Below are positions 1 through 23,712 of a stretch of DNA of 41,586 nucleotides, piece by piece. How positions within the stretch are numbered: position 1 is the stretch's first letter; each line of letters begins with the position of its first letter. Below the pieces are notes generated by a model that worked only from the letters and a program-made list of their open reading frames with translations, ran no database searches and was not told the DNA's origin. The stretch lies in the IMG/VR virus record IMGVR_UViG_2778261450_000006, positions 1 to 41,586 of that record; one strand, 5' to 3'. The DNA comes from a virus (lineage: Duplodnaviria > Heunggongvirae > Uroviricota > Caudoviricetes). The position numbers were made by a program, and so were the translations under genes.

Positions 1-1719
1 ATGATTTTTAGGGATAGCTTGAGAGTATTACCTTATGGTCGAGTAGATAATGATTTCTTCCAGATAGAAGAAAGACGTTCATGGAATGCAGGGCGATATT
101 ATTGGTCTAATAGAAGGATTTTTGGTTATATTGGAATTACTCAATCCAGTAATAAAGAGCTGAAAGATAAGTCGGGGAGAGAGGGATTCATAAGAAACCA
201 GGCTGCAAGAGAACTGAAAACTATTATATCTAATTTGTTAACTGAACTTGCTGATAGATTTTTTGGTTCACGTTCTGATGACCGTAAAGAGCTTTTAGAA
301 CAAGTTAAGCGTGAAAAAGAGTTAAGAAAATCTGCTCAACAACAAGCTCGAAAATCAACACAAAAAAGTTTTTCAGAAGCTTTGAAGAATCAGACACCAG
401 TTCTTGATGCTTCCTTGGAGGCTGTTAAAAGGCTGAAAACTAAGCTTGATAAAACTGATGGTTCGTTAGATTTAAACTATCTTAAAATTATAGACAGTGA
501 TCTTACAAACTTAGATGCGTTGCGCAGTGAAATTAAAACGCCTATCAAACCTCCAAAACTTGGAATGTATGAAGAGAAATATAGAGACTACAGAGATAAA
601 TTTAATGAGTTCTCTGCGTATATTCTACAAATGAAGTTAGCAATTAATAAACTTGATTCTGAATTAAATAAACTTGAGCCTTCATTGTCAGCGAAAAATC
701 ACCTTGAAAAAAATCAAGGTATTATTAATTCTAAACTAACTAAGTTTAATAACACGATAGAGGAGAAGATACATTCTCTTTTAAAAAAATGGGCCGATGA
801 AATAAAGGTTGATCGAAGTGATTATTATGCTAAAACTATATCAGTTGTTGATTCAATAGATAATGATTCACAAATTGAAAATGTGTTTAATTTGCTCGAT
901 AGTTTATATGTTGAGTCAGTTGATACCCTAACTTTCAAATATCAATCAATAATAAAAGGTCTCGATAGATTATTTGAAGGTATAAACTTAGATTCAGCAT
1001 TCTCATTATCTGAAGAAGAACGCTCATATTTTGAAGAAAAAGCTAAAAGTTTAAACGCGCTTGCACAGTTAGGTATTAGTGTTGAGATAATATCTCATGA
1101 ACTTGAAGAAATGGATTCTATGGTAACCAGAGGACTAAACTCTCTTCCTACTTCTGTAAAAGAACACCCTGGTTTTTCATTGGCGTTAAATGCTCACAGA
1201 TCGCTTACTCAACAAATACGTTTCTTATCACCTTTGAAAATATCAGGTTATCAATCCAGGCAGAGAATAACTGGAAAAAATATCATGGATTATGTCCTGA
1301 AGTTCTTTGGGGAGCGTTTCGAACGGCAACGAATAACTATTGAATTTAGTGAAGAGTTTAAGCAAATCGCAATAACAGATATACCATCAAGGATCTATCC
1401 TGTTTTTACTAATATTATCAACAATGCAATGTATTGGGTCAGTCTGTCAAATAATAGGCTCATAAAGATTGGTTTTGTGAATTCTTTGGTTATCATAGCA
1501 AATTCTGGTCCGGCAATTGATACCGATGATATCCCGCGACTATTTGAACTATTTTATAGCAAAAGAGCAAATGGACATGGGGTAGGTCTGTATCTATGTC
1601 GAGAAAACCTTGCTGTTGCACATCATAAAATATGGTATTCAGAACCTGATGAAGGCGATAACTATTTAATAAAAGATGGCGCTAATTTTGTGATCCAGTT
1701 CAATGGAGTGGAGTTCTAA
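1..1719 (+). CDS. Histidine-kinase-like protein (HisKA-like H-box plus GHKL ATPase domain); N-terminal ~380 aa charged and coiled-coil-like; possibly 5'-truncated by window edge
   Basis: ORF begins at base 1. C-terminal third carries H-box-like ISHELEEM, N-box FTNIINNAMYW, G1-like ANSGPAIDTDD and G2 GHGVGLYLCRENL. Stop overlaps start region of the downstream gene. AT-rich. Confidence 0.6.
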   Translation: MIFRDSLRVLPYGRVDNDFFQIEERRSWNAGRYYWSNRRIFGYIGITQSSNKELKDKSGREGFIRNQAARELKTIISNLLTELADRFFGSRSDDRKELLEQVKREKELRKSAQQQARKSTQKSFSEALKNQTPVLDASLEAVKRLKTKLDKTDGSLDLNYLKIIDSDLTNLDALRSEIKTPIKPPKLGMYEEKYRDYRDKFNEFSAYILQMKLAINKLDSELNKLEPSLSAKNHLEKNQGIINSKLTKFNNTIEEKIHSLLKKWADEIKVDRSDYYAKTISVVDSIDNDSQIENVFNLLDSLYVESVDTLTFKYQSIIKGLDRLFEGINLDSAFSLSEEERSYFEEKAKSLNALAQLGISVEIISHELEEMDSMVTRGLNSLPTSVKEHPGFSLALNAHRSLTQQIRFLSPLKISGYQSRQRITGKNIMDYVLKFFGERFERQRITIEFSEEFKQIAITDIPSRIYPVFTNIINNAMYWVSLSNNRLIKIGFVNSLVIIANSGPAIDTDDIPRLFELFYSKRANGHGVGLYLCRENLAVAHHKIWYSEPDEGDNYLIKDGANFVIQFNGVEF

Positions 1720-1720
1720 T

Positions 1721-3469
1721 ATGACAGTGGCAAATTATAATTCTCTTGTCCAGAAAACTTTCTGCGAAAATGCAATTCGTTCCGTTGTCATGATTGATGA
1801 CGATTTTCTGACGTATTCTGAATCAATCAGGGCGTTGAATAACGAAGTTGATTTAGACTACAACAAAATTGACTCATCTAAACGAGCCGCTACTCTTGAG
1901 AGCTTTTTTCAATCTAAAAATATGATTTGTGATGTTGACAATGGTTCTGTTAATTTCGATGTGGATCGGATTAGAAAATCAGATCTTATTATTGTAGATT
2001 ATCATCTTGATAATAATGCACCTGATAAAACACTTAAACTATTACAAGATTTGAAAGACTCCGATCATTTAAATATGATTGTAATATATACTAGAGAGAA
2101 TTTAGAAACGGTTTGGATGCAGATATCATCGACTCTCAAAGGTGCTCTGGATATCAACAGCTTGATCATTGACTACGATAATGAAGATGTCCAAAGTTAT
2201 TGGGAAGACGTTGTATTACCGAACTTAAATGATAATGGTAATAAAGCTCTCACAAGAGATGAAACAATAGCCTATATTAAAGACAGTAAGCCTTGTAGAA
2301 GAATTAAAAGATTAATACATGATGATGCTGTGTTGGAGGATCAAAAGGATAAAAACTTCATTGCAAAAATGATTGCAGAATATGCTGTGTCTAGAAATGC
2401 AATTATTTCTAGCAACACATCTGGCAATGTCATTCGGGGTGATGAAAGCGGAGTAAAATGGATTCAATGTGGTAATATCTTTGTCTCCCTATTTCATAAG
2501 GTTCAAGATGATCATGAAAACGATGGAGATAGGATTTGGCAAACTCTCAATGATTCTCTCATTGAATGGAAACCATCTTATTATCAGTTAATAAAATCTG
2601 AAATTCAGAATGCAATCGAAGCTGAGGCTTTATCTTTTGTAAATCATTTGGCTAACGATCATTACGGTCAAGCTGCGTGGTTAAATGAGATATTAAAATC
2701 AGACTCGCCTGATATTAGATGTAGAAATATTGACTTTGTATTTGGTAATTTATCAGAAGAGCTTTATCAAAGACTTAAAAATAATAATACGCTGGATGAA
2801 TTTATCAAAAGTGTTTTTGATAGCTATTCAAATGAATACGCTAACAGCGGAGTTGCTGCATTGCTCCAATATTGCTCTTCAAAAATGGATCTGCCATCAA
2901 ATAATGATACTTATCACGAAATGTATCATGCTTTAAATATGAATTTGTCTTCAAAGAATTTTGAAGATGGTCATATTTCTACTGGCACTATTTTCTTTGA
3001 TACAGAGTCGAACAAATGGTATTTATGTGTATCTGCGGCATGTGATTTGGTTCCTACTCAGGGTAACGACCCTCACCATGTAAGATTAAGTCCGCACAGG
3101 CTCATTAAAGTTCTGGAGCTTTTTAACGCCAGTCAGAGTAAAGCATTGCCATTTGCTGAACATTCGAAATATATATATGTAATGCATAAAAATCAAAGAA
3201 AATATCTCTCTATTTTCGAAGGGGATAAAACGCTTCCTGTTGTTGATTATATGGTGGTGTTGAATCATGGAACAACAGTTGATGGCGAAGAAAAAAATAT
3301 TATTTCTGCCGTGTTTTTAAGTAATATGGATGGCAACGTGCAAAATGTTCCTGTCCGACTCAAACTTAAATCTCAACTGAGAACTGGTTATGCAGAAAGA
3401 TATCAGGCTATAGCGTCTCAGTATAGCTCAAGGATTGGTGTGGATTATGTATCAATGATGCTACCATAA
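1721..3469 (+). CDS. Receiver (REC) domain protein with ~450-aa C-terminal domain of unknown function (candidate effector)
   Basis: ATG at 1721 preceded by GGAGTGGAG (track ORF starts 1703). N-terminus has REC-like pattern VVMIDDD ... DLIIVDYHLDN ... NMIVIYT. No HTH or other recognisable output domain. Coupled to upstream kinase-like gene. Confidence 0.6.
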   Translation: MTVANYNSLVQKTFCENAIRSVVMIDDDFLTYSESIRALNNEVDLDYNKIDSSKRAATLESFFQSKNMICDVDNGSVNFDVDRIRKSDLIIVDYHLDNNAPDKTLKLLQDLKDSDHLNMIVIYTRENLETVWMQISSTLKGALDINSLIIDYDNEDVQSYWEDVVLPNLNDNGNKALTRDETIAYIKDSKPCRRIKRLIHDDAVLEDQKDKNFIAKMIAEYAVSRNAIISSNTSGNVIRGDESGVKWIQCGNIFVSLFHKVQDDHENDGDRIWQTLNDSLIEWKPSYYQLIKSEIQNAIEAEALSFVNHLANDHYGQAAWLNEILKSDSPDIRCRNIDFVFGNLSEELYQRLKNNNTLDEFIKSVFDSYSNEYANSGVAALLQYCSSKMDLPSNNDTYHEMYHALNMNLSSKNFEDGHISTGTIFFDTESNKWYLCVSAACDLVPTQGNDPHHVRLSPHRLIKVLELFNASQSKALPFAEHSKYIYVMHKNQRKYLSIFEGDKTLPVVDYMVVLNHGTTVDGEEKNIISAVFLSNMDGNVQNVPVRLKLKSQLRTGYAERYQAIASQYSSRIGVDYVSMMLP

Positions 3470-3540
3470 TTATTATATTTTAGGCGTGGTGATTTTTTTT
3501 CGCCATGCCTATTTTATATTTATCATCACAATGATGTTGT

Positions 3541-3957
3541 TTATTTTTGTTTAAGTCTTCTAAGCTTCATGCATTCTAATGAGAATAATAATAGAGTTGT
3601 GCTGTATATAAAGCCAGAGTTAGTTAATAACTTTAAATTTAATGCTTCAGGATTTTCACTGAGAAAGTGAAAGGCATAAACTAAGTATACAGCTAAAGTA
3701 GCCGTTCCAATTGTTGGTCCAATATCGCCTTGATCATGAGGTTCAAGGTTTACATTGAACTTGAAGATTAGCCATTCAAATCCCCAAGTAAAAAAAACAA
3801 CTAATATCATGGCTGCGAATAATTTCGCGATGTTATCTGCTGATGGATTCATCAGAACAGATTGTTTCTGAAAAAATTCACAAAGTGAGAGTCCGAAAAA
3901 AATAAAAAAAAGTGGTCTGGAACTAAATTTTTCAAAAACTTTGAATAGGGTTTCCAT
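3541..3957 (-). CDS. Small multi-pass membrane protein (hypothetical)
   Basis: 138-aa ORF with several hydrophobic stretches (LFFIFFGLSL, AAMILVVFFTWGFEWLIF, TATLAVYLVYAF, FIYSTTLLLFSL). Lies directly downstream of the P4-type integrase on the same strand. Confidence 0.45.
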   Translation of the reverse strand: METLFKVFEKFSSRPLFFIFFGLSLCEFFQKQSVLMNPSADNIAKLFAAMILVVFFTWGFEWLIFKFNVNLEPHDQGDIGPTIGTATLAVYLVYAFHFLSENPEALNLKLLTNSGFIYSTTLLLFSLECMKLRRLKQK

Positions 3958-3995
3958 TTTCTTTACCTTCAGGATTATATTAGCTATTCTGATAC

Positions 3996-5225
3996 TTAGG
4001 CTACCAGAGCATTTGATCTTTGAGCTTGAACGTAATCACTCCACCATTGCATCAAACTCTGTCGCTCTATCAGATATTCTGCACGATTGTATGCTGCGAT
4101 AATTTCATCTTTTTTCGAGTGGGCAAGCGCTGCCTCAAGAACTTCAGCTCTGAATTTACCAGACTCCTCTGCCGCTGTTCGTGCAATAGAACGCATACCG
4201 TGAGCTACAAGCTCGCCTCCGAACCCCATTCGGATGATAGCTGCGTTGGCTGTTTGTTCATGCATATGATTAAGAGGCGCTTTTATGCTGGGGAAAACCC
4301 ATTCTCTATGCCCACTTATTGATTTCATTAATTCAAGGATGCGCAAAGCTTCTTTACTCAAAGGAACTTTGTGAAGCTTTTTCATTTTCATGAAATCAGC
4401 AGGAATGTTCCAAATGCTGTTGGTTGTATCAATATCAGACCACCTTGCGCGAACGGCTTCACCCGGACGAACCCATGTCAACAATTGCCATTCAATTAGC
4501 ATACGTGTTTCCAACCGGATTGACGCATTCGTCAAAGATTCCATAAACCTTGGCAATTCGCTTGGGGGAAGGGCAGGCATATTTTGCTTTTTTGGTTTAC
4601 TGAATCTTTGACCAAGGTTGTCAGCCGGGTTGAACTCAATAAGTTCTTCAGTAGCTGCCCACCGGAAGATTTCATTCAGACGTGAAATGATACGGCGTAG
4701 AGTTTCCAATACGCCTCGTTGCTCAATAGGATCAAGGTGTTGTTTTAAGAGCTTAGGTCGGATCTCATTGATAGGGACATTACCCAGACCGGGAAAGACA
4801 TTTCTCTCTAAGCTGCGCCAGATGTCTGCTGCATGGTCTTGTGAGATACCTGATGTCTTTACCTTCTCATCTAACCATTTCCGCGCTACGGCTTGGAGAG
4901 TGTGCTCAGTAGCACTCTTTAATGCCTTCGCCTTATCGTTGTTATGGATTTGGGGATCAACACCATTTGCCAGAAAGGAGAGATATTCATCACGTAAGGC
5001 TCTGGCTCTTGCAAGGGTAAGGTGAGGATATGTCCCAAGGCTCATTTTGGTTCTTTTCTTGCTCACTGGTACTGCATACCTGAAATACCAATTTTTCTTG
5101 CCTCCTTTCGCCAAAGGAGCGATTCGTAGAATCAGACCATCACCGTCAAACAAGTTGATTTCTTTATCGGCTGGCTTGGTGCTTTTGATTTCAGTGTCAG
5201 TGAGCTTCTTAGCGATTTTTGCCAT
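3996..5225 (-). CDS. intA: P4-type tyrosine integrase (IntA/CP4-57-like)
   Basis: N-terminus MAKIAKKLTDTEIKSTKPADKEINLFDGDGL and C-terminal HGMRS...AHS...AYNRAEYL..QWW motifs typical of P4-family integrases. Start chosen at the internal ATG (5223-5225) with GAGGG RBS; track ORF extends to 5267. Adjacent to the 45-bp ssrA 3' fragment. Confidence 0.85.
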   Translation of the reverse strand: MAKIAKKLTDTEIKSTKPADKEINLFDGDGLILRIAPLAKGGKKNWYFRYAVPVSKKRTKMSLGTYPHLTLARARALRDEYLSFLANGVDPQIHNNDKAKALKSATEHTLQAVARKWLDEKVKTSGISQDHAADIWRSLERNVFPGLGNVPINEIRPKLLKQHLDPIEQRGVLETLRRIISRLNEIFRWAATEELIEFNPADNLGQRFSKPKKQNMPALPPSELPRFMESLTNASIRLETRMLIEWQLLTWVRPGEAVRARWSDIDTTNSIWNIPADFMKMKKLHKVPLSKEALRILELMKSISGHREWVFPSIKAPLNHMHEQTANAAIIRMGFGGELVAHGMRSIARTAAEESGKFRAEVLEAALAHSKKDEIIAAYNRAEYLIERQSLMQWWSDYVQAQRSNALVA

Positions 5226-5390
5226 TTTGGGACCCTCGGTTTTTGGACCCTTCTTAATGGGTCCCATTCAGGGTGCCATAACTCGTAGTTCTCAGCAATT
5301 CTCACTGGACGACAATAGACGTAAAAAAGCCCGCAGAGCTTGTGCTGTGTGGGCTTAGTAGACTTCATTGAACTTCAAACAACTAAAAAG

Positions 5391-7233: not shown

Positions 7234-7866
7234 TCAAAGGCTCTTAATGATTTTCAGTGCACGGCCTACTACCTCAATGTCATCCAGGCCACACTCAAAC
7301 GATGAATCATCCTGATGCACTACTAATCTGTTTCCCGGGAGTCGAGTCAATTTAACAATGCTTTTTATCCCGTCGATATCGACTAACCACATACCATTCA
7401 CTGGTGGTGTTTGGTTGCGATCTATTAAATAAGAATCACCAGAAGTAGTCACCAGCAGTAGGTTGCTTGAGTCTGAGGGGAGTATGCTGCTATCAATGAT
7501 TGCTTTTCCAGCATCGACCAATAAACCACCGTTGAGAGTCGCCTTGTCAATTTCAGGAGATACTAGTTCAGAAAGAGGTACAACCTTGCTGGAGTTCACG
7601 GAATTGATATTTTTTTTAGGTTCAATGTTTGGACCTGGCTCCCCCTGTCCGGTGGTTAGCCACAGTAAAGAAACTCCTGTTTCCAAGGCGCACTGAATCA
7701 CCCACTCTGCAGGAAAACTATCTCTTAAGTATCTGTTTGCCATGGTGCTTTTTGATGCGCCTAAGTGATCGCAAAGTTGCTGTCTGGACTTGAAATCATA
7801 GGCTGCCATTAGTCTATGGATAGCTTCTCTTCCCCCTGTATTCTCTCCAGCCTTTACCTGTATCAT
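7234..7866 (-). CDS. cI: CI-type immunity repressor (186 CI-like)
   Basis: 210 aa directly upstream of int on the same strand, divergent from apl/cII; N-terminal motif QCALETGVSLLWLTTGQG resembles 186 CI. Confidence 0.8.
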   Translation of the reverse strand: MIQVKAGENTGGREAIHRLMAAYDFKSRQQLCDHLGASKSTMANRYLRDSFPAEWVIQCALETGVSLLWLTTGQGEPGPNIEPKKNINSVNSSKVVPLSELVSPEIDKATLNGGLLVDAGKAIIDSSILPSDSSNLLLVTTSGDSYLIDRNQTPPVNGMWLVDIDGIKSIVKLTRLPGNRLVVHQDDSSFECGLDDIEVVGRALKIIKSL

Positions 7867-10360: not shown

Positions 10361-11214
10361 GCACCATCCTGAAATGGGCAGGTAATAAAACTGCCATTAT
10401 GTCCGAACTGAAAAAACATCTTCCTGCTGGCCCGCGACTGGTTGAACCTTTCGCGGGTTCCTGTGCTGTGATGATGGAGACGGATTACCCCAGCTATCTT
10501 GTTGCGGATATTAATCCTGATTTAATCAACCTCTATAAAAAGGTTGCTGCTGATTGTGAATCGTTTATATCTCGCGCCAGAGTTTTATTTGAGATCGCAA
10601 ACAGGGAGGTGGCTTATTACAACATAAGGCAGGAGTTTAATTACTCAACTGAAATTACTGATTTCATGAAAGCGGTATATTTCCTGTATCTAAATCGTCA
10701 CGGTTACCGTGGTTTATGTCGCTATAACAAGAGCGGGCATTTCAACATTCCCTACGGTAATTATAAAAATCCGTATTTCCCTGAAAAAGAAATTCGCGCA
10801 TTTGCAGAAAAAGCCCAGCGAGCAACGTTTATCTGCGCCAGCTTTGATGAAACGCTGGCGATGTTGAAAGCGGGGGATGTGGTGTATTGCGATCCGCCGT
10901 ATGACGGTACGTTTTCCGGCTATCACACTGACGGCTTCACTGAAGATGACCAGTATCACCTGGCATCTGTTCTTGAACATCGGTCATCAGAAGGACATCC
11001 GGTCATTGTTTCTAACAGTGACACATCCCTGATCCGTTCGCTGTATCGCAATTTTACTCACCACTACATCAAGGCAAAACGCAGCATCGGTGTGGCAGCT
11101 GGCGAGGGTAAATCAGCAACAGAAATCATTGCTGTTTCCGGGCCGCGCTGCTGGGTGGGATTTGATTATTCGCGTGGCGTGGATAGTTCTGCCGTGTACG
11201 GAGTACGTGCATGA
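10357..11214 (+). CDS. dam: Orphan DNA adenine methyltransferase (Dam family)
   Basis: Start [18 protein letters not shown] (AdoMet-binding) and DPPY catalytic motif; no adjacent restriction endonuclease gene. Confidence 0.85.
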
Positions 11215-13625
11215 GTCATGCCGATATGAACAACTGCTGCGGCTTTAACGAAGCTGCCGCATCGTTCTCATGGAACAGCCCGAAAAAGGCCATTAACCCT
11301 TATCTGGACCCGGCGGAAGTTGCGCCGGTTTCTACGCTTTCAAACCTGATCACTCTGTACGCTGCCGATAACGAGCAGGAACAGCTGCGCCGTGAGGCGC
11401 TGAGTGATCAGGTCTGGGAGCGTTATTTCTTTAATGAATCCCGTGATCCTGTCCAGCGCGAAATGGAGCAGGATAAGCTCATTAGTCGGGCAAAGCTGGC
11501 GCATGAGCAGCAGCGTTTTAACCCGGACATGGTCATTCTGGCAGACGTCAGCGCCCAGCCCTCCCATATCAGCAAGCCGCTGATGCAACGTATTGAATAC
11601 TTCAGCAGCCTTGGCAGGCCAAAGGCTTATTCCCGCTATTTGCGTGAGACGATTAAGCCATGTCTGGAACGGCTGGAGCATGTACGCGACAGTCAGCTAT
11701 CCACATCTTTTCGCTTTATGGCAAGCCATGAAGGGCTGGACGGCCTGCTGATTCTGCCTGAAATGAGTCAGGATCAGGTGAAACGCCTGTCCACCCTTGT
11801 TGCTGCGCATATGAGCATGTGCCTTGATGCAGCTTGTGGCGATTTGTATGTCACCGATGACGTTAAGCCAGAAGAAATCCGCAAGACATGGGAAAAGGTG
11901 GCAGCAGAAACCCTGCGACTGGATGTCATACCGCCTGCGTTTGAGCAACTCCGCCGGAAAAGAAACCGCCGTAAACCCGTGCCATATGAACTCATTCCGG
12001 GTTCGCTGGCGCGTATGTTGTGCGCCGATTGGTGGTACCGGAAATTATGGAAGATGCGTTGCGAATGGCGGGAAGAGCAGTTGCGTGCTGTTTGCCTGGT
12101 CAGCAAAAAAGCATCTCCCTATGTCAGCTATGAAGCCGTGATGCATAAACGTGAGCAGCGCCGTAAGTCGCTGGAGTTTTTCCGTTCTCATGAACTGGTG
12201 AACGAAGACGGCGACACGCTGGACATGGAGGATGTGGTAAACGCCAGCAGCAGCAACCCTGCGCATCGCCGCAATGAGATGATGGCCTGTGTTAAAGGTC
12301 TGGAGCTTATCGCGGAAATGCGCGGTGACTGCGCCGTTTTCTACACCATCACCTGTCCGTCACGTTTCCATTCCACGCTAAATAACGGCAGGCCCAACCC
12401 GACCTGGACAAATACGACGGTAAGACAAAGCAGTGATTATCTGGTCGGCATGTTTGCTGCATTTCGTAAGGCGATGCACAAAGCCGGATTGCGCTGGTAT
12501 GGCGTGCGGGTGGCTGAGCCGCATCATGACGGTACAGTTCACTGGCACCTGTTGTGTTTTATGCGCAAAAAAGATCGCCGCACCATTACTGCTTTGTTGC
12601 GTAAGTTTGCCATTCGTGAAGACCGCGAGGAGCTGGGTAATAACACGGGACCACGCTTTAAGTCTGAGCTGATAAACCCGCGCAAAGGTACGCCAACAAG
12701 CTACATCGCGAAATACATCAGTAAGAACATTGACGGGCGTGGTCTGGCTGGCGAGATCAGCAAGGAAACGGGTAAATCCCTGCGTGATAACGCTGAATAC
12801 GTTAATGCCTGGGCGTCTCTGCATCGTGTTCAGCAATTCCGCTTCTTTGGCATTCCGGGGCGTCAGGCTTACCGTGAACTGCGATTGCTGGCTGGTCAGG
12901 CGGCAAGGCAACAGGGGGACAAAAAAGCAGGTGCGCCGGTACTGGATAACCCGCGCCTTGATGCAATCCTGGCTGCTGCTGATGCTGGTTGTTTTGCCAC
13001 CTACATCATGAAGCAGGGCGGCGTACTGGTTCCCCGCAAATATCACCTCATCAGAACTGCTTATGAAATCAACGAAGAACCGACCGCATATGGCGATCAC
13101 GGTATTCGTATTTATGGCATCTGGTCACCCATTGCAGAGGGCAAGATCTGCACTCATGCGGTGAAGTGGAAAATGGTTCGTAAGGCTGTTGACGTTCAGG
13201 AGGCGGCAGCCGACCAGGGCGCTTGCGCCCCTTGGACTCGTGGCAATAACTGTCCCCTTGCTGAAAATTTGAACCAACAAGGGAAAGACAAATCAGCTGA
13301 TGGGGATACCAGAACGGAAATCACCCGCATGGATGACAAGGAATTGCACGATTACCTGCACAGTATGAGCAAAAAAGAGCGCCGGGAACTGGCAGCAAGG
13401 TTACGCCTGGTTAAACCGAAACGGCGTAAAGACTACAAACAGCGAATTACAGATCATCAGCGACAGCAGCTCGTCTATGAACTGAAGTCCAGAGGATTTG
13501 ATGGCAGCGAGAAAGAGGTCGATTTACTCCTTCGCGGCGGCAGTATTCCGTCAGGAGCAGGCCTGCGTATCTTCTATCGGAACCAGCGTCTGCAGGAGGA
13601 TGATAAATGGCGGAACCTGTATTAA
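11211..13625 (+). CDS. A: Replication initiation protein A (rolling-circle nickase, P2 gpA family)
   Basis: 804 aa; HUH-like VHWHLL motif and YIAKYISK tyrosine motif; position between early genes and SOS operon. Confidence 0.9.
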
Positions 13626-13717
13626 TTACGCAGGTTAACAATTCGTGCTCTTAATAATACCAGGCATATCAGGCTGATGAGCGTAAAAAAACGTTTTACA
13701 TCAGTAAGATTATTATA

Positions 13718-13737
13718 TACTGTAAATATAAACAGTG
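13718..13737. promoter_or_regulatory. LexA (SOS) box overlapping the promoter of the tum/dinI-like operon
   Basis: tactgtaaatataaacagtg is a perfect CTGT-N8-ACAG match, ~40 bp upstream of the 13778 ORF. Confidence 0.7.
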
Positions 13738-13777
13738 GTTATGTATACAGTGTTGCTTTGGTGTCATAGGAGGAAAG

Positions 13778-13966
13778 ATGCAGGACTATTTTTTGGAGTC
13801 TTTGAAGCTCCAGCGCATTGATTTTTTTCTTAAGCTTGTAGCGGCTAGTGAGTGTAGTGATGAAGAGAAGGGGCTGGCCCTGCAGTGGGTTTCTGAACTG
13901 ACAGATGAACTCATGGCAAAAATCAGAACCCACGAATACAACCGCTCAATGGATGTCATCAGCTGA
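13778..13966 (+). CDS. Small SOS-controlled protein, candidate Tum-like antirepressor N-terminal module
   Basis: 62-aa ORF with AGGAGG RBS directly downstream of the LexA box; position corresponds to 186 tum. Confidence 0.45.
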   Translation: MQDYFLESLKLQRIDFFLKLVAASECSDEEKGLALQWVSELTDELMAKIRTHEYNRSMDVIS

Positions 13967-13976
13967 GGTGACTTTT

Positions 13977-14210
13977 ATGCGCATTGAAATAATGATCGAT
14001 AAAGAGCAGAAGATTAGCCAGTCTACCCTGGACGCTCTGGAGTCAGAGCTTTACCGCAACCTGCAACCCATCTATCCCAAGACAGCTATCCGCATCCGTA
14101 AAGGGTCGGCAAACGGCGTTGAGCTGAGTGGCTTAAAGCTTGATGAAGACAAAAAGCGGGTGATGGAAATTATGCAGCAGGTTTGGGAAGACGACAGCTG
14201 GCTGCACTAA
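13977..14210 (+). CDS. dinI: DinI-family protein
   Basis: MRIEIMIDKEQKISQSTLDALESEL...EDKKRVMEIMQQVWEDDSW resembles E. coli DinI; ATG 13977 with GAGGTG RBS (track ORF starts 13905). Confidence 0.75.
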   Translation: MRIEIMIDKEQKISQSTLDALESELYRNLQPIYPKTAIRIRKGSANGVELSGLKLDEDKKRVMEIMQQVWEDDSWLH

Positions 14211-14283: not shown

Positions 14284-14544
14284 ATGGGTAAAAAAGACAG
14301 TAATCACCAGATTATTTATCGGGGCCAGGTGCTGGAACGGTTTACCCCTGGCGGCTGGGTCTTCTTTCAACGCCCAAAGGAGTGTGGCGGAGGTTTTTGG
14401 TTGGGCCGCACCTATGAAGACTGCTTCTGGCTTGAGCTGGAATTCCCCGTTTCGCTATATGACGGCCTGGAGTTTTTGATGGAAGTCACCAGGGTAGAGC
14501 AGAGAAGTGATGAGGTTGACGCGAATTATTCCCTGTTTGATTAA
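14284..14544 (+). CDS. Hypothetical protein
   Basis: 86-aa ORF from ATG 14284 (track ORF starts 14233); no recognisable motif. Confidence 0.4.
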   Translation: MGKKDSNHQIIYRGQVLERFTPGGWVFFQRPKECGGGFWLGRTYEDCFWLELEFPVSLYDGLEFLMEVTRVEQRSDEVDANYSLFD

Positions 14545-14592: not shown

Positions 14593-15204
14593 ATGGATTT
14601 AGTCTTTAAAATTCTGGCTTCGTTGGGTGGGGTGTCTTTTGTTGCATCTGGCATATTTGTTTGGATCGGGAAAGTTTATTTAGAAAGATATAAGTCGCGG
14701 CTAAACAAAGATATTGCTGAATTTCAATCACAACTGAGTGCAACTAATGAAAGAATAAAGGCTAAGTTAGACAATTCTGTTTATGTAACGAAAGCGTATT
14801 TTGATAAGGAGTTATCAGCATATAGTCTCATTTGGAATTCGATGTTTGAAACCAGAGAAAGCGTGCTTAAGCTGAGGCCTGCGCTGGATCATTTTGACCC
14901 CAACGAACCATTTGAAGAGAGAAAATTTAGAAGGTTGAAAGTTTTTTTCGATGCATTTAATACTTTTGTTACAAGTGTTGAGTCTAACAAACCGTTCATC
15001 TCACCAGAGGTTTATATAATCTTGGACCGTTTCCGGAAGGAATGCCTTTCAGAGTCAATATCGTTTCAGCATGGCGATCCAGAATTTGACTGGCAAAATT
15101 ATTGGAAAGAGGCAGAGTTGAACCGTACAACCATCACCAAGCTTTTTGATGAGACGTGTGATGCAATTCGAGACAGGATGCACACATTAACTGTGGTTAC
15201 GTAG
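14593..15204 (+). CDS. Membrane-anchored protein of unknown function (single N-terminal TM helix; cargo)
   Basis: 203 aa, hydrophobic N-terminus ILASLGGVSFVASGIFVWIG followed by a soluble domain; AT-rich; followed by a terminator. Confidence 0.5.
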   Translation: MDLVFKILASLGGVSFVASGIFVWIGKVYLERYKSRLNKDIAEFQSQLSATNERIKAKLDNSVYVTKAYFDKELSAYSLIWNSMFETRESVLKLRPALDHFDPNEPFEERKFRRLKVFFDAFNTFVTSVESNKPFISPEVYIILDRFRKECLSESISFQHGDPEFDWQNYWKEAELNRTTITKLFDETCDAIRDRMHTLTVVT

Positions 15205-15319: not shown

Positions 15320-15364
15320 GCTTATGTCATGCAGGCGCATGAAAACCACTACATAAAGCGGGCA

Positions 15365-15383
15365 GGCGTGGCGGGGATACGAG
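15365..15383. other. Candidate cos (cohesive-end) site of the P2/186-family phage
   Basis: ggcgtggcggggatacgag resembles the P2 19-nt cohesive end GGCGAGGCGGGGAAAGCAC as recalled from memory. Confidence 0.35.
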
Positions 15384-15535
15384 CGCGCGCTAAGTCATAT
15401 AAGAGTTATATATTGATTTGATTGCTGGACATGCATACAGTATCGCTCTATCATCTAATAAATCTTAGAGTATTTGGCAATGTTTGGATAAAATGGAACC
15501 TAACTTATTCATAATCCGCTAAACAGGGATGTCAG

Positions 15536-16450
15536 ATGCCATACCAATTGGTAGAGCTTAGCCCCGTAGCTAACGATCTTGAACAGTTAGGAACCAAAGA
15601 GAAGTTTTGGTTCTATTTCTCCGATGACACTGTAAATTTGCAGTTGTTTAAGTACTCTAGGCCAGGTACTGGCGAGCATTGGTCTGAAAAGTGTGCTGCT
15701 GAGTTATGTCATTTGCTTAACATTCCACATGCTAGCTATGATTTGGCGCGATACAATGGTCGATTCGGTGTGGTGACTCAGAATATCATTCCATCTGGTT
15801 TCCGGATGGTAATGGGAAATGAAGTGCTTCACAGTTCGACATTCGATTATCCTGGGCCTTTACAAGCCGGGGAAAAGCCGGTAAGGGTCAGAGAACACAC
15901 TGTCACAAGGGTATTGGGTTGTTTGGATAGGGAATCTATCAAGCCTCCTCCGAGTGTATATGATCTAACCGGGCTAAATGCAGCAGATGTATTTTGTGGA
16001 TATTTGATGCTCGATGCACTTGTGAGTAATCAAGATCGCCATCATGAAAATTGGGCGATCATGCTTAACAATGAAACTGGTGAGCAGTTTTTGTGTCCAA
16101 CATACGATCATGCCGCTAGTTTAGGAAGGGAGATGTTAGATGATGAGCGTAACGAACGGCTTAATACTAAAGATAAAAATCGACAAATCCCATGTTTTGT
16201 AAGAAAAGCTCGCTCTGAGCTATTCAAAGCAAAAACTGATAAAAAGCCCTTGCTGACCGTTGAAGCATTTCAACATGCAGTTGAAGGGAGAGTTGCCGCT
16301 CGCGACCATTGGTTAGGTAAGTTGAGCGTTTTAACAGAAGATTCCATTACAGATGTGTTTAACCAAGTGCCTTCATCGTGTATATCCGACAGTGCACGTA
16401 GATTTGCAACGTTAATGGTAATGGAAAATCGCAGAAGGTTACTAGAATGA
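15536..16450 (+). CDS. HipA-like serine/threonine kinase core (lacks HipA N-terminal subdomain)
   Basis: P-loop-like GTKEKF near N-terminus and catalytic motif LDALVSNQDRHHENWAIM matching the HipA D-x-H-x-x-N region; YDHAASLG follows. AT-rich leader. Confidence 0.7.
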   Translation: MPYQLVELSPVANDLEQLGTKEKFWFYFSDDTVNLQLFKYSRPGTGEHWSEKCAAELCHLLNIPHASYDLARYNGRFGVVTQNIIPSGFRMVMGNEVLHSSTFDYPGPLQAGEKPVRVREHTVTRVLGCLDRESIKPPPSVYDLTGLNAADVFCGYLMLDALVSNQDRHHENWAIMLNNETGEQFLCPTYDHAASLGREMLDDERNERLNTKDKNRQIPCFVRKARSELFKAKTDKKPLLTVEAFQHAVEGRVAARDHWLGKLSVLTEDSITDVFNQVPSSCISDSARRFATLMVMENRRRLLE

Positions 16451-17187
16451 CTAATACAAACTCCGTTTACGTCGCATGGCAGGCACCAGATACCAGAGAC
16501 TGGCATGTTGTTGGTAACTTGCAAGAGCGCAAATCGGGGTATGTTTTCAGGTATACCAAAGGTGCTCTTAAATCTACTAAATTTACAAAGTTTAGCGGCA
16601 TGAGTGATGTTCGTGAAACTTATGTTTCGGAAGAATTGTTTCCTCTTTTTAAAAATCGCCTTTTATCACCGAGACGTCCAGAGTATCCGAGTTTCATTAA
16701 ATGGCTTGGATTTGAAGAAGATAAGGTAAATCCTATCGATATTCTTGCTCGCTCGGGAGGCTTACGAAGCACTGATCAGCTGCAGATTTTCAAAAAAATT
16801 GATGTTGATTCTGATGGTAACTTTGAGCATTTTTTCTTCTTACATGGACTTGGTTACTTAAATAGCTTAGCTAATGCTCGTGTATCTGAATTGAAACCGG
16901 GGCAAATTTTGCGTCTTTGCTTGGATCTTCAAAATGAATACGATGGGGATGCTGTTGTCGTTCGTGCAGATAAACCAGCTGAAATCGTTGGTTACTGCCC
17001 TAGGTATTTAAGTAATGATATCAAGAAGATGTTATTGGATGATCCAAAATCAATCACTTTAACGGTCGAAAAGATTAGCGATGATGCTCCTCATAACTAT
17101 CGGTTATTATGTAAATTATCAGGAGTACTAAGCCAAGCCTGTCAATCGACGCTGATTCCTCAGGATGAGTTTGAACCTATTGAGTAA
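16447..17187 (+). CDS. HIRAN-domain protein with N-terminal HipA-N/HipS-like region
   Basis: C-terminal LKPGQILRLCLDLQNEYDGDAVVVRADKPAEIVGYCPRYL matches the HIRAN signature; start overlaps kinase stop (ATGA). Confidence 0.65.
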   Translation: MTNTNSVYVAWQAPDTRDWHVVGNLQERKSGYVFRYTKGALKSTKFTKFSGMSDVRETYVSEELFPLFKNRLLSPRRPEYPSFIKWLGFEEDKVNPIDILARSGGLRSTDQLQIFKKIDVDSDGNFEHFFFLHGLGYLNSLANARVSELKPGQILRLCLDLQNEYDGDAVVVRADKPAEIVGYCPRYLSNDIKKMLLDDPKSITLTVEKISDDAPHNYRLLCKLSGVLSQACQSTLIPQDEFEPIE

Positions 17188-17221: not shown

Positions 17222-18262
17222 TTATGGGACTATATCTAGCGAGTAGGTATTAAACTGTATCGCCTCCTTGCCAAGCCAATCATTCATCTCCTGTAATCGC
17301 TTTTGTAGTGGCATTAGCTCATTTCGGACGAATACACGGCTTGCCTTTTCCACATCCCCAAACCCCCCAACATTATTCGGCATAATCCCCATCATTTGCG
17401 GCGGCACGCGGTGCGCTGCCATCATGTCATCCCGACTCACGTTCTTGATGTTAAGAAATTCATCCTTCGCCGCGACTTCTGACAATGGGATGATCTGAAG
17501 CCCGTCTTTTTTGCCGTTAGGTGAGTACATAAACAGGTTGCGGAAGTTGCCTGGACCTTTGGCGCTTTTCATCGCGTTGCGGAGGTTGTTCACATCCTCC
17601 TGATTCTGCGCGGCATCGGTCATGTACATGATGAAGCCTGCATGGCTGCCGTTAATGTAATACTTACGGCGGAACAACGTGGCGGACTCGTTGAGCAGGG
17701 CTGACGGAATGGCAGAAAGATAACCGGGCAGGCCGTAGATCTCCTGGTTGATATCCGGTTCCATCAGATGAAAGATGCTGCCTTTCGTGAACTGATACGG
17801 CTGCGTAGTCATGCCGTATTGCACAAACCAGTAGGTATCCAGGTCTAACCCGCGTCGGGTGTATTTTGCCAGAGCAGGCTCAAGGGCGATAACTTCACCG
17901 AAGCGGTTCGTGCGTTTCTCCAGGTAGGCGTTACCAAATACCAGATAGTCCTGCACAAAACGTGAAAAAGCCTGCTGGCTGAGCAGCGGGTGGGGGATGT
18001 AGGTACTGGTCAGAATGTTGCATTTCACCGCAATTGGTGAACTGTGATGCACGGCGGCGCGGAAGGTGCGCGCCAGTCCGTCAAAGCTTACTGGCGGCTC
18101 ATACCAGCGATCTGTCTGTACGCATTCCACATAGTCCAGTAGTTCGCGGCGGTCCAGAACAGGAACGGGATCACCGAAGCTGAATGCTTCGGCTGTAGTT
18201 TGACTTTTATGCTGGATCTGGTTCGTCGACGCAGCGCGGTTCTTCTTACTCTTTCCCATCAA
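17222..18262 (-). CDS. Q: Portal protein (P2 gpQ family)
   Basis: 346 aa, size and position (leftward, paired with P, divergent from O) match P2 Q. Confidence 0.9.
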   Translation of the reverse strand: MMGKSKKNRAASTNQIQHKSQTTAEAFSFGDPVPVLDRRELLDYVECVQTDRWYEPPVSFDGLARTFRAAVHHSSPIAVKCNILTSTYIPHPLLSQQAFSRFVQDYLVFGNAYLEKRTNRFGEVIALEPALAKYTRRGLDLDTYWFVQYGMTTQPYQFTKGSIFHLMEPDINQEIYGLPGYLSAIPSALLNESATLFRRKYYINGSHAGFIMYMTDAAQNQEDVNNLRNAMKSAKGPGNFRNLFMYSPNGKKDGLQIIPLSEVAAKDEFLNIKNVSRDDMMAAHRVPPQMMGIMPNNVGGFGDVEKASRVFVRNELMPLQKRLQEMNDWLGKEAIQFNTYSLDIVP

Positions 18263-20025
18263 AAAATCTCCACAATATTACTGGTATTGGCGGACTCGCC
18301 CTGCAGTGGTTCGTTAAACAGTGCGTGCATTGTTGCCCAGGCCAGATCGGCGTGGCTGGCTTCTTCGCTGCGGCTGGCTTCATAGGTTGGGCGGTTGCCA
18401 CTGGCGGTGGTTGCGCGACGGATTGCCATGAATGACTGCGCAATGTCGGTGTGCCCGGCGTCAAACTCCAGACGGCGGTGGCTGATAATGTCGTAGGCCT
18501 TGAGTACCAGGGCGTTTTTAACGTTGGGGTTGTAGACAAACTCCCGGACGGCAGGAAAGAACGCTTTCACGTTCTCGTAAACCCCGTGACCAACGCCGGT
18601 TGAGTCGATACCGATATAAGTCACGTTGTACTGTTCGGTAAGTTTTTTGATGGCGTCAGCCTGGGCGCGGAAGTCCATCCCGCGCCACTGGTGACGCTCA
18701 AGAATGCGGAACTTACCACCCGGCACGGCTGGCGGTGCCACCACCACGCATCCAGCGCTGTCGCCGTTTTGCGTACCTTTTGCCGGGTCATAACCGATCC
18801 ACACTTCGCGCCAGCCAAACGGGCGCAGCGCCAGTGCATGAAAGTCGGTCCAGACTTCCCAACTGTCCACCATGCACGCCTGCAGCTCGCTGAGCGGAAA
18901 CACGGACGCGAGATCGTCCACAAACTCGCACATCAGCAGGTTCTGGTATTCGTCTGGGCTGTACTCCATGCGTAGCTGGTCGAGGTCGAACAGGTTACAG
19001 CCGCCGCGCACCGCATCTTCCACGGTGACTATCTGGCGGTATTGCCCGTCTGCGCACAGCAGGCCGGGGGCCAGATTGCTGTGGGACAGGTCGATGTCCA
19101 CCTTATCGGCTTTGTTGCGCCCACGGTTGAACAGCGCACCGGACCAGAACGGATAAGCACTGTGTGTCAGACTGGATGGCGTGGAAAAATAGGTTTGTCG
19201 CCATTTTTTGTGAATAGCCATACCGGAAGCCACTTTGCGCAGCTCCTGGAATTTCGGTATCCAGAAATATTCATCCAGATACAGGTTGCCGTGGTAACTC
19301 TGGGCCGTGCGGGCATTGGTGCCGAGGAAGTAAAGCGTGGCCCCGTTAGGAAGCACCATCGGATCGCCTTTCAGCTCCACCTCCACTTCTTTGGCAAAGT
19401 CGATGATGTACTGTTTAAAGACGTGGGCCTGAGCCTTGCTGGCAGAAAGGAAAATCTGGTTACGCCCGGTCAGCAGGGCGTCAATCAGGGCTTCACGGGC
19501 AAATTAAAAGGTCGCGCCGATCTGGCGTGACTTCAGCAGGTTGCGGATGCGGTTGGTTTTTCCGGCTTCCCACCAGTGGCGCTGGTAGTTGAACATAGAG
19601 GAATGGAAGATTTCTTCCAGTTTCTCAATCTGTTCATCGGTGAAAACATTCTTTTCCGGCTGACGACGTGGGCCTTTGTTGCGGTTGGCAACGTTAGGGT
19701 TTAAGTCGGCTTCGTTGCCGCCATTGTTAAACTTGCCGATCCGCGCGTGGCGCTCAGACTGGCGTGCCAGCAGGTCAATTTCTTTGAAATCTTTCCCTTC
19801 TTTGTGCTCCTTCATAATGAGCTGGCAGTAGCGTGCGGCGGTGGTGAGCTGCATCTGATCCAGCGGCCCATAGTCACCCCACTTGTCGCGTTTTTTCCAG
19901 CTGTGAACGGTTGCAACTTTCTCGCCCAGCATTTCAGCAATGCGGGCGACGCGGTATCCCTGAAAGTACAGCAGCATGGCCTGCCGACGGGGATCGAGAT
20001 CTGCGGGTGTCAGTGTGGTGTTCAT
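18259..20025 (-). pseudogene. P: Terminase ATPase (large) subunit gpP interrupted by an in-frame TAA
   Basis: ORFs 19504-20025 and 18259-19386 are in the same frame; a single TAA at 19504-19506 (minus strand) is the only stop, and the 39 codons between it and the next Met (FAREALIDALLTGRNQIFLSASKAQAHVFKQYIIDFAKEV) continue the protein. Combined length 588 codons. Confidence 0.8.
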
Positions 20026-23290: not shown

Positions 23291-23493
23291 TGAAAGTGCG
23301 TGCGCATCAGTATGACACGGTGGACGCGCTTTGCTGGCGTCATTACGGGCGCACGCAGGGTGTCACGGAGCAGGTACTGAAGGCAAATCCGGGGCTTGCC
23401 GAATACAGCCCCTTTTTACCTCACGGGCTGCAGGTGGAGCTGCCGGACATTCCGACCACCACCACCGTGCAGACCGTCCAGCTATGGGACTGA
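23290..23493 (+). CDS. X: Tail protein X (P2 gpX family)
   Basis: 67 aa; start overlaps L stop. Confidence 0.8.
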   Translation: MKVRAHQYDTVDALCWRHYGRTQGVTEQVLKANPGLAEYSPFLPHGLQVELPDIPTTTTVQTVQLWD

Positions 23494-23496
23494 ATT

Positions 23497-23712
23497 ATGA
23501 CGCTTGAGCGAATCAGCGCCTTTATCACGTATTGCATCGCCGTCGTGCTGGCCTGGCTGGGCGATTTGTCCATCAAGGATGCCTCAACGCTGGGCGGCCT
23601 GATGATTGGTGTGCTGATGCTGGCTATCAACTGGTACTACAAACACAAAGCCTACCAGCTTCTGCGCGACGGGCAGATCTCGCGGGAGGACTATGAATCC
23701 ATCAATCGTTAA
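23497..23712 (+). CDS. Y: Holin (class with two TM helices; P2 Y position)
   Basis: 71 aa, two hydrophobic helices and charged C-terminus, immediately upstream of endolysin. Confidence 0.7.
   Translation: MTLERISAFITYCIAVVLAWLGDLSIKDASTLGGLMIGVLMLAINWYYKHKAYQLLRDGQISREDYESINR

What the first reader, a model, noticed from the sequence alone, without database searches (positions are those of the whole stretch)
13690..14210. LexA-boxed SOS operon with a tum-like ORF and a separate DinI-like ORF
A perfect CTGT-N8-ACAG LexA box (13718-13737) overlaps the promoter region of a 62-aa ORF, which is followed in another frame by a DinI homologue. From memory, 186 is SOS-inducible through an antirepressor Tum whose C-terminal part is DinI-like. 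Here the two parts are separate ORFs, which may be the native arrangement or a frameshift that changes induction control of a prophage that is already packaging-defective.
Basis: partly seen in the sequence, partly recalled or inferred. Interest (0 to 1): 0.45.

Follow-up and report, generated by a model that had tools for sequence, protein, structure and literature searches.

The report
LexA-controlled prophage induction operon (tumA-dinI)
This is the ordinary, already described DNA-damage switch of Fels-2/PSP3-type P2-like prophages, in which a LexA-repressed promoter drives a small antirepressor gene and then a separate DinI gene; the two-gene layout is native, not a frameshift.

Summary
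A consensus LexA box (13718-13737) lies in the 152-bp gap after the P2-type replicase gene A. It is followed by a 62-aa ORF (13778-13966) and, 10 nt later in another frame, a 77-aa DinI-family ORF (13977-14210).

The 62-aa ORF is a homologue of the N-terminal, non-DinI part of phage 186 Tum (profile-profile probability 97%; PHROG cross-hits). It is 98% identical to Fels-2 STM2728 and to the gene called tum in E. coli HS prophage DuoHS. Published work shows that deleting only that 62-codon ORF, or making LexA non-cleavable, abolishes mitomycin C induction of DuoHS.

PSP3 annotates the same layout as tumA/tumB, and the literature states that tum is split in Fels-2 and PSP3. Both ORFs are under strong purifying selection, each has its own ribosome-binding site, and the frame offset between them varies among relatives (+1, -1, 0). 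This excludes a frameshift or a programmed fusion. The locus occurs in about 1,100 of 5,426 complete E. coli genomes.

Verdict: already known, low interest. Two side observations are mildly interesting: the promoter carries a colicin-type double LexA operator that 186 and PSP3 lack, and near-identical TumA travels with CI repressors only 38-58% identical overall.

The parts
13695..13700 (+). putative -35 hexamer TTTACA of the SOS promoter (equivalent of 186 p95)
   Evidence: Invariant in 10 relatives although the 17-nt spacer diverges. Same position relative to the LexA box as the annotated -35 of 186 p95. Assigned by homology; the generic promoter scan did not call it.
13718..13723 (+). putative -10 hexamer TACTGT, which is the left arm of LexA box 1
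   Evidence: 186 p95 is annotated with -10 = TACTGT inside its LexA site. Here it lies 17 nt after TTTACA. Inferred.
13718..13737 (+). LexA box 1, TACTGTAAATATAAACAGTG (core 13720-13735)
   Evidence: Conserved in all relatives. Homologous site in 186 is annotated as a LexA binding site.
13733..13752 (+). LexA box 2, CAGTGGTTATGTATACAGTG (core GTGGTTATGTATACAG 13735-13750), sharing one base with box 1; a colicin-type double operator
   Evidence: Conserved footprint. The 31-nt double site is 27/31 identical to the operator upstream of colicin N (cna) and closely resembles that of pesticin (pst). [quoted passage not shown]
13778..13966 (+). tumA-type antirepressor gene, 62 aa (SD AGGAGG 13768-13773)
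   Evidence: hhalign against the 186 Tum-N group: 97.2%, E 3e-11. PHROG phrog_698 with cross-hits to phrog_1993 and phrog_8554, which hold PSP3 TumA and 186 Tum-N. 61/62 identical to DuoHS tum ECHS_RS04495, whose deletion abolishes induction. dN/dS 0.07-0.10 against the divergent relatives. AF2 model is a two-helix hairpin, pLDDT 90.
13977..14210 (+). dinI-family gene (tumB equivalent), 77 aa (SD GAGGTG 13965-13970)
   Evidence: Pfam PF06183, E 2e-24. 43% identical to 186 Tum residues 71-145. Matches E. coli DinI structure 1GHH, E 2e-9. dN/dS 0.02-0.08.
7234..7866 (-). 186-type CI immunity repressor, the presumed target of TumA
   Evidence: Pfam PF07022 plus PF16452. Homologous to 186, Fels-2 and DuoHS CI. 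Its role as target is inferred from 186 Tum biology (PMC3121763).
14284..15204 (+). two downstream ORFs of unknown function (86 aa 14284-14544; 203 aa 14593-15204) in the position of 186 orf97, possibly co-transcribed; membership of the operon is uncertain
   Evidence: phrog_2100 and phrog_26391, both of unknown function. The scan placed no terminator in the gap between dinI and the 86-aa ORF; the only site on that strand (14347-14359) lies inside that ORF, and the terminator scan as a whole was no richer than shuffles. The cos site follows at 15333-15391.

Best explanation
This is the SOS induction module of a Fels-2/DuoHS/Cartapus-type P2-like prophage integrated at ssrA.

In undamaged cells, LexA occupies a double operator that overlaps the -10 region of the promoter just downstream of replicase gene A, and keeps the operon silent. 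DNA damage activates RecA, LexA cleaves itself, and the operon is transcribed.

The first product is TumA, a 62-aa acidic two-helix protein. It acts as an antirepressor: it binds the 186-type CI repressor (7234-7866, minus strand) and stops it from holding the lytic promoter, which switches the prophage to lytic development without CI cleavage. The second product, independently translated from its own ribosome-binding site, is a DinI homologue. It probably modulates RecA filament activity and hence the strength or duration of the SOS signal.

In phage 186 the same two modules are fused into one 146-aa Tum. Here, as in PSP3 (tumA/tumB) and Fels-2, they are separate genes, and that is the native state.

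Shown here: sequence homology, operator conservation, purifying selection and synteny. Shown in the literature for a 98% identical gene: a genetic requirement for tum and for cleavable LexA. Inferred: TumA-CI binding, the DinI role, the promoter hexamers, and cooperative double occupancy by LexA.
For: Anatomy.

LexA boxes: 0.00 expected by chance; footprint in 10 phages; 186 p95 has the same -35 / -10-in-LexA-box design.

Homology of the small ORF to Tum-N: hhalign 97.2%, E 3e-11; 186 Tum-N hits phrog_698 at 5.7e-6, ORF62 hits phrog_8554 at 2.4e-8 and phrog_1993 at 2.2e-3, PSP3 TumA hits phrog_1993; a continuum of intermediates, most of them with a LexA box upstream.

DinI.

Native split.

Literature: PMC3121763 says Fels-2 and PSP3 have tum split, and that the upstream PSP3 gene carries the antirepressor activity.

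Experiment in a close relative: PMC12055606 deleted ECHS_RS04495 with primers that fuse the ATG after AGGAGGAAAG to the TGA before GGTGACTTTTATGCGCATTG. That is exactly this ORF. Both delta-tum and lexA(Ind-) lost mitomycin C-induced lysis.

Target present: a CI of the 186 type.
Against: Plain BLASTP finds no similarity between the 62-aa ORF and 186 Tum, so homology rests on small profiles (3 and 4 sequences) and on PHROG models.

Nothing has been measured for this particular prophage. Its CI is only 44% identical to DuoHS CI and 58% identical to Fels-2 CI, so TumA-CI compatibility here is assumed.

The -10 hexamer is weak (3/6), and the generic promoter scan did not call the promoter.

The terminase nonsense codon means induction may not yield phage.
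Confidence: 0.9

Rival explanations
1. The two ORFs are the remains of a fused 186-type tum gene broken by a recent frameshift or nonsense mutation (or by a sequencing error near 13960-13980), which would impair induction.
For: The DinI frame is open upstream to 13905, so a +1 slip in 13905-13966 would give a fusion. 186 has a fused Tum.
Against: The identical junction (TGA, GAGGTG, ATG) occurs in Fels-2, Cartapus, DuoHS, 813R9 and Klebsiella phages. Divergent relatives keep two ORFs with different stops and spacers of 10, 11 or 12 nt. Both ORFs are under purifying selection. None of 120 cluster representatives is fused. About 1,100 E. coli genomes carry the locus, and every row sampled is annotated as two genes. 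PSP3 tumA/tumB and the literature state that the split is normal. Deleting the small ORF alone blocks induction in DuoHS.
Confidence: 0.02
2. A fused TumA-DinI protein is made by programmed +1 ribosomal frameshifting or stop-codon readthrough, reproducing 186 Tum.
For: The open upstream extension of the DinI frame. A hairpin spans the stop codon and the Shine-Dalgarno sequence at 13955-13972.
Against: The frame offset between the two ORFs is +1 here, -1 in SopEPhi, SEN8 and ST437phi4.1, and 0 in MLG42 and PSP3, so no single recoding mechanism is conserved. The hairpin is no better than shuffled sequence (z -0.81) and is absent in relatives. dinI has its own conserved SD and ATG.
Confidence: 0.03
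3. The 62-aa ORF is not an antirepressor in this prophage. The LexA-controlled unit is merely a DinI cargo gene that tunes the host SOS response, and induction (if any) uses another route.
For: The ORF has no Pfam family and is annotated as hypothetical everywhere. The window's CI differs substantially from the CIs of the phages where tum function was tested.
Against: Homology to Tum-N and TumA. 98% identity to the experimentally required DuoHS tum. Standalone tumA-like genes, nearly all with a LexA box and no dinI, occur in Yersinia, Erwinia and Cronobacter P2-like phages, showing that the small gene is the core of the module. The CI N-terminal domain remains 64-82% identical among phages that share this TumA.
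Confidence: 0.05

Closest known systems
E. coli HS prophage DuoHS tum (ECHS_RS04495) plus DinI-like ECHS_RS04500; Salmonella Fels-2 STM2728 plus STM2726.1; Escherichia phage Cartapus gp44/gp45
   Same: Small ORF 98-100% identical, the same double LexA operator, the same junction and SD sequences, and the same position after gene A. In DuoHS, tum and cleavable LexA are required for mitomycin C induction.
   Different: The CI repressors are only 44-58% identical to the window's CI. The dinI allele is mosaic: dS about 1.1 against Fels-2, while tumA has dS 0.03. The cargo genes downstream also differ.
Salmonella phage PSP3 tumA/tumB
   Same: A split organisation with a 60-aa TumA followed by a 77-aa DinI homologue, annotated as such. 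LexA box upstream. TumB is very close to the window's DinI. The upstream gene is reported to carry the antirepressor activity (PMC3121763).
   Different: TumA belongs to a different subfamily (phrog_1993 versus phrog_698). The two ORFs are in the same frame, separated by TAG plus 3 nt. There is a single consensus LexA box, not a double operator.
Coliphage 186 Tum (p95 SOS operon)
   Same: A LexA-repressed promoter after gene A with the -10 inside the LexA box. An N-terminal antirepressor module plus a C-terminal DinI module. A CI-type repressor as target.
   Different: In 186 the modules are one 146-aa polypeptide with internal starts that also yield DinI-only products. It has a single LexA box. 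The N-terminal module is only remotely similar (no BLASTP hit). orf97 lies downstream instead of the window's two unknown ORFs.
Colicin and pesticin SOS operators (for example colicin N cna, pesticin pst)
   Same: Two LexA boxes sharing one base. The 31-nt sequence is 27/31 identical to the cna operator. In colicins this design binds two LexA dimers and gives very tight repression (PMC2994835).
   Different: Here the operator controls a prophage antirepressor rather than a toxin. In the window box 1 overlaps the presumed -10, whereas in the Col plasmids a TTGACA -35 and a -10 lie upstream of box 1.
Gifsy-1/Gifsy-2 dinI-gfoA/gftA operons
   Same: A LexA-controlled operon that pairs a DinI homologue with a small antirepressor (PMC3121763).
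   Different: The gene order is reversed (dinI first). The antirepressors and their lambdoid-type repressor targets belong to other families.

Membership tests
Tum/TumA antirepressor module of 186-like (CI-type) P2-like phages | Sequence homology to the non-DinI N-terminal part of 186 Tum or to PSP3 TumA | tested here: met
   hhalign 97.2%, E 3e-11. Reciprocal PHROG cross-hits. BLASTP alone is negative.
Tum/TumA antirepressor module of 186-like (CI-type) P2-like phages | Located immediately downstream of replicase gene A, near the right cos end, transcribed rightward | tested here: met
   Gene A at 11211-13625. cos at 15333-15391. Same synteny in 186, PSP3, Fels-2 and DuoHS.
Tum/TumA antirepressor module of 186-like (CI-type) P2-like phages | LexA operator overlapping the promoter | tested here: met
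   LexA binding itself was not measured.
Tum/TumA antirepressor module of 186-like (CI-type) P2-like phages | A cognate 186-type CI repressor (not a P2 C-type) in the same prophage | tested here: met
   PF07022 plus PF16452 at 7234-7866, minus strand.
Tum/TumA antirepressor module of 186-like (CI-type) P2-like phages | Required for SOS induction; binds CI and blocks operator binding | not testable with these tools
   The genetic requirement is shown for the 98% identical DuoHS gene. The biochemistry is known only for 186 Tum (cited in PMC3121763).
Fused 186-type Tum (single polypeptide) | Antirepressor and DinI modules in one open reading frame | tested here: not met
   TGA at 13964-13966, a 10-nt spacer, and a different frame.
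DinI family (Pfam PF06183) | Profile match above the curated threshold and similarity to E. coli DinI | tested here: met
   86.1 bits against a cutoff of 24.2. PDB 1GHH, E 2e-9.
DinI family (Pfam PF06183) | Binds RecA filaments and modulates co-protease activity | not testable with these tools
   Inferred from family membership only.
Enterobacterial LexA (SOS) box | CTGT-N8-ACAG palindrome with an AT-rich spacer in a promoter region | tested here: met
   Box 1 has a perfect core and matches the 20-mer consensus at 17 of 20 positions (my count from the sequence). It is intergenic and conserved.
Colicin-type double overlapping SOS operator | Two LexA boxes sharing one or two bases, with the second having a degenerate left arm | tested here: met
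   13720-13735 and 13735-13750. 27/31 identical to the cna operator. Conserved in 10 phages.
Colicin-type double overlapping SOS operator | Cooperative binding of two LexA dimers, giving very low basal expression | not testable with these tools
   Known for colicin operators (PMC2994835). Not measured for any tum promoter that I could find.

The most novel reading that the evidence does not exclude
Two linked readings remain open.

(1) The Fels-2/DuoHS clade has swapped the single LexA box of 186 and PSP3 for a colicin-type double operator (27/31 identical to the colicin N operator). Two LexA dimers would then hold the antirepressor promoter shut, making induction a late, high-threshold SOS event. 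This could reflect exchange of a regulatory cassette between Col plasmids and P2-like phages.

(2) One nearly invariant TumA allele serves CI repressors that are only 38-58% identical overall. Their N-terminal DNA-binding domains stay 64-82% identical, while their C-terminal domains are as diverged as that of 186. This would mean TumA targets the CI N-terminal domain and can cross-induce heteroimmune P2-like prophages.
Probability: 0.45. Interest if true: 0.35.

Novelty: already known. Interest (0 to 1): 0.12.

Why it matters
It confirms that this ssrA-integrated P2-like prophage keeps an intact, selectively maintained SOS induction switch even though its large terminase gene carries a nonsense codon. 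DNA damage, including from antibiotics such as fluoroquinolones, would therefore still be expected to trigger derepression, excision or replication and host killing, without releasing infectious particles.

For annotation, the 62-aa "hypothetical protein" (sometimes labelled "levan regulatory protein") present in roughly a fifth of complete E. coli genomes should be named as a TumA-type antirepressor. Nothing here changes current understanding of the mechanism.

Tried and rejected
- BLASTP of the 62-aa ORF against 186 Tum found no alignment. Pfam, PADLOC and PDB sequence searches were also empty. Homology was established only with profiles.
- The generic sigma-70 scan found no promoter in 13626-13777. 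The promoter is assigned by homology with 186 p95.
- The hairpin at 13955-13972, which the scan flagged as terminator-like and which I considered as an SD-sequestering or recoding signal, was rejected. Its z-score is -0.81 and it is not conserved.
- A conserved programmed frameshift was rejected because frame offsets differ among relatives.
- A one-mismatch LexA-like site at 3602-3617 lies inside an ORF of a neighbouring island and was treated as chance.
- Bunny et al. 2002 (PMC151935), the primary source for the Fels-2 tum split, is not held in the library. I relied on its citation in PMC3121763.
- A paper search for 'TumA/TumB' returned only unrelated hits.
- The Rfam scan found nothing in the region; the only hit in the window is tmRNA.
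- I did not compute heterology indices because I do not hold the Lewis et al. matrix.

Full report
**Context**

The window holds a P2-like prophage of about 35 kb. It is collinear with Escherichia phage Cartapus (Peduoviridae, Elveevirus) from about 5391 to about 40571. It is integrated at the tmRNA gene ssrA (40527-40889, minus strand). The finding lies just downstream of the P2-type replicase gene A (11211-13625; Pfam PF05840, E 6e-127) and about 1.1 kb before the cos site (15333-15391). That is the position of the p95 SOS operon in coliphage 186.

**Checking the observation**

The sequence contains TACTGTAAATATAAACAGTG at 13718-13737.
- The bare core CTGT-N8-ACAG is unique in the window but not significant by itself (0.57 expected).
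- The extended motif TACTGT-W8-ACAGT is significant (0.00 expected in 100 shuffles).
- The site is an island of conservation in an alignment of ten related phages whose flanks and promoter spacer have diverged.

The 62-aa ORF runs from 13778 to 13966, with AGGAGG four bases upstream. The DinI-family ORF starts at the ATG at 13977, preceded by GAGGTG, and ends at 14210 (Pfam PF06183, E 2e-24; PDB 1GHH, E 2e-9). The two ORFs are separated by 10 nt and lie in different frames.

**What the two ORFs are**

The DinI ORF is 43% identical to residues 71-145 of 186 Tum (E 2e-25).

The 62-aa ORF gives no BLASTP alignment with Tum and has no Pfam family. Three lines of evidence nevertheless show that it is the homologue of the Tum N-terminal module:
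1. Small ORFs at the same position after gene A in Yersinia, Erwinia, Cronobacter and Escherichia P2-like phages form a sequence continuum between 186 Tum-N and this ORF. The shared pattern is roughly [ED]R[IV]-x-[LMF]-[IF]-x-[RK]-[LM]-x-A-x3-C-x7-AL-x-[WL]-[IVL]-[AS]-E-[LI]. Nearly all of them have a TACTGT-N8-ACAGT box 36-61 nt upstream.
2. A profile of the ORF62 group aligns with a profile of the 186 Tum-N group at 97.2% probability, E 3e-11.
3. In PHROGs, ORF62 belongs to phrog_698 and also hits phrog_8554 and phrog_1993. 186 Tum-N hits phrog_1993, phrog_8554 and phrog_698. PSP3 TumA is phrog_1993.

AlphaFold2 predicts a confident two-helix hairpin (pLDDT 90). The protein is acidic, with 12 D/E against 7 K/R.

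**Native arrangement or frameshift?**

The evidence points to a native arrangement.
- The 62-aa protein is 98-100% identical in Cartapus, Fels-2 (STM2728), RE2010, many Klebsiella prophages and phage 813R9. It is 84-90% identical in SopEPhi, SEN8, ST437-OXA245phi4.1 and Yersinia phage MLG42. In every case examined a separate DinI gene follows.
- Against the divergent relatives (dS about 0.9-1.1), dN/dS is 0.07-0.10 for the small ORF. For dinI it is 0.02-0.08.
- The stop codon (TGA, TAA or TAG), the spacer (10, 11 or 12 nt) and hence the frame offset (+1, -1 or 0) differ among relatives, while each dinI keeps its own SD and ATG. In PSP3 the two genes are in frame, separated by TAG plus 3 nt. 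This pattern fits neither a recent frameshift nor a conserved programmed frameshift.
- The 120 listed cluster representatives from the 5.8-billion-protein search are 55-109 aa long. The longer ones reflect upstream start calls. None carries a DinI domain.
- The locus is present in 1,126 of 5,426 complete E. coli genomes. Every sampled row that covers both genes is annotated "hypothetical protein" plus "DinI-like family protein".

**What is already known**

The PSP3 record annotates tumA ("similar to 5' end 186 tum; UV induction of prophage") and tumB ("similar to dinI and 3' end of 186 tum").

Lemire et al. [quoted passage not shown] 2002.

The most direct evidence comes from the Phollow study (PMC12055606). 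It deleted "tum" (ECHS_RS04495) of E. coli HS prophage DuoHS.
- The deletion primers fuse the ATG after ...ATAGGAGGAAAG to the TGA before GGTGACTTTTATGCGCATTG.
- Those flanks match the window at 13758-13780 (one mismatch) and at 13964-13986 (exact).
- ECHS_RS04495 is a 62-codon ORF followed by a DinI-like gene. It is 61/62 identical to the window's ORF and has the same promoter.

**Mechanism**

Steps marked "inferred" have not been measured for this clade.
- LexA binds the operator that overlaps the presumed -10 (TACTGT, 17 nt after a conserved TTTACA). This is the same design as the annotated 186 p95 promoter. The hexamer assignment is inferred.
- After DNA damage the operon is derepressed. 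This is shown genetically in DuoHS.
- TumA inactivates the 186-type CI repressor (7234-7866, minus strand; PF07022 plus PF16452) by binding it. This is known for 186 Tum and inferred here.
- DinI modulates RecA filaments. This is inferred from family membership.
- The two downstream ORFs (14284-14544 and 14593-15204; both unknown PHROGs) sit where 186 has orf97 and may be co-transcribed. The scan placed no terminator in the gap after dinI, only a weak site inside the 86-aa ORF.

**Additional observations**

1. *Double operator.* The promoter carries two LexA boxes that share one base: CTGTAAATATAAACAG at 13720-13735 and GTGGTTATGTATACAG at 13735-13750. Both are conserved in the ten Fels-2-type phages. 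186 and PSP3 have a single consensus box. A blastn search of the promoter against plasmids hit small Col-type plasmids. The matches lie directly upstream of the colicin N and pesticin genes, and the 31-nt double site is 27/31 identical to the cna operator. [quoted passage not shown] By analogy this clade may hold its antirepressor under tighter, later-firing control than 186.

2. *TumA and CI do not co-vary.* TumA that is at least 98% identical travels with CI repressors only 38-58% identical to the window's CI: Fels-2 58%, Cartapus 51%, DuoHS and 813R9 44%, 4LV2017 40%, ST11-OXA245phi3.1 38%. Split by domain, the CI N-terminal DNA-binding domain stays 64-82% identical in these phages, against 39% for 186. 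The C-terminal domain falls to 28-52%, against 31% for 186. This fits TumA recognising the N-terminal domain and raises the possibility of cross-induction between heteroimmune prophages. It is a correlation from eight sequences and is confounded by phylogeny.

3. *The operon is mosaic.* Against Fels-2, tumA has dS 0.03 but dinI has dS 1.1. The window's dinI is closest to the ST437phi4.1 and PSP3 alleles. This fits two independently exchangeable modules.

4. *Standalone tumA-like genes.* Such genes, without a dinI and nearly all with a LexA box, occur in several other P2-like genera. The small gene therefore looks like the core of the switch and DinI like an accessory.

**The "packaging-defective" remark**

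The large terminase gene (18259-20025, minus strand) is 99.7% identical to that of Cartapus but has TAA in place of TAC (Tyr) at codon 174, at window 19504-19506. The portal gene is intact. If the nonsense codon is real and not a sequencing error, SOS induction would still derepress the prophage but should not yield packaged virions.

**Verdict**

The open alternative is resolved in favour of the native split arrangement. The feature is a textbook member of a known and experimentally tested system, so novelty is "already known" and interest is low. The double colicin-like operator and the TumA clade / CI N-terminal-domain correlation are the only elements that might merit a small follow-up.

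Noticed in passing
window 13720-13750: The tumA promoter has two LexA boxes sharing one base. The 31-nt site is 27/31 identical to the double SOS operator of colicin N and closely resembles that of pesticin on small Col plasmids. It is conserved in 10 Fels-2-type phages, whereas 186 and PSP3 have a single box.
   Followed up: partly
window 7234-7866 (minus strand) versus 13778-13966; L011, L022-L029: TumA that is at least 98% identical occurs with CI repressors only 38-58% identical to the window's CI. The CI N-terminal domain stays 64-82% identical while the C-terminal domain drops to 28-52%, which suggests TumA targets the N-terminal domain and could act across immunity types.
   Followed up: partly
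window 19504-19506 (minus strand), within 18259-20025: The large terminase (gpP) gene has a single in-frame TAA where Cartapus has TAC (Tyr174). It is otherwise 99.7% identical. This is either a real inactivating mutation or a sequencing error.
   Followed up: partly
window 15536-17187: Two genes between cos and the portal gene match the PADLOC candidate defence pair PDC-M03A (E 2e-122) and PDC-M03B (E 3e-93). They replace the single DUF4145 gene that Cartapus has at this position.
   Followed up: partly
window 13778-14210 versus L003 (Fels-2): There is a recombination mosaic inside the operon. Against Fels-2, tumA is nearly identical (dS 0.03) but dinI is highly diverged (dS 1.1). The breakpoint lies in the first third of dinI.
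   Followed up: partly
L005-L010 (Yersinia vB_YenM phages, Erwinia ENT90, ESSI2_ev040, Cronobacter ESSI-2): Standalone tumA-like ORFs after gene A with no dinI downstream. Four of the six have a perfect TACTGT-N8-ACAGT box upstream. In ESSI-2 and vB_YenM_324 the ORF is not annotated at all.
   Followed up: partly
window 14284-14544 and 14593-15204: Two ORFs of unknown function (phrog_2100; phrog_26391) occupy the position of 186 orf97 between dinI and cos. They may be SOS co-transcribed cargo.
   Followed up: no
window 1-5390: To the left of the prophage lies another island. It has a P4-type integrase (3996-5267, minus strand), two large ORFs (1-1719 and 1703-3469) and a 138-aa ORF. This suggests tandem elements at ssrA, and a partial att/ssrA repeat at 5391-5548 matches Cartapus 23419-23576.
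   Followed up: no
L015 (Escherichia phage 500465-1, NC_049342): This record has compensating single-base indels in tumA and further indels in dinI, which lead to aberrant gene calls (291-nt and 318-nt CDS). These are probably sequencing errors.
   Followed up: no
annotation of L002, L004 and P0018: The naming is misleading. RefSeq and PHROG label full-length 186 Tum as 'RecA filament binding protein DinI'. The TumA-type ORF is called 'hypothetical protein' or, in some sources, 'levan regulatory protein'.
   Followed up: no
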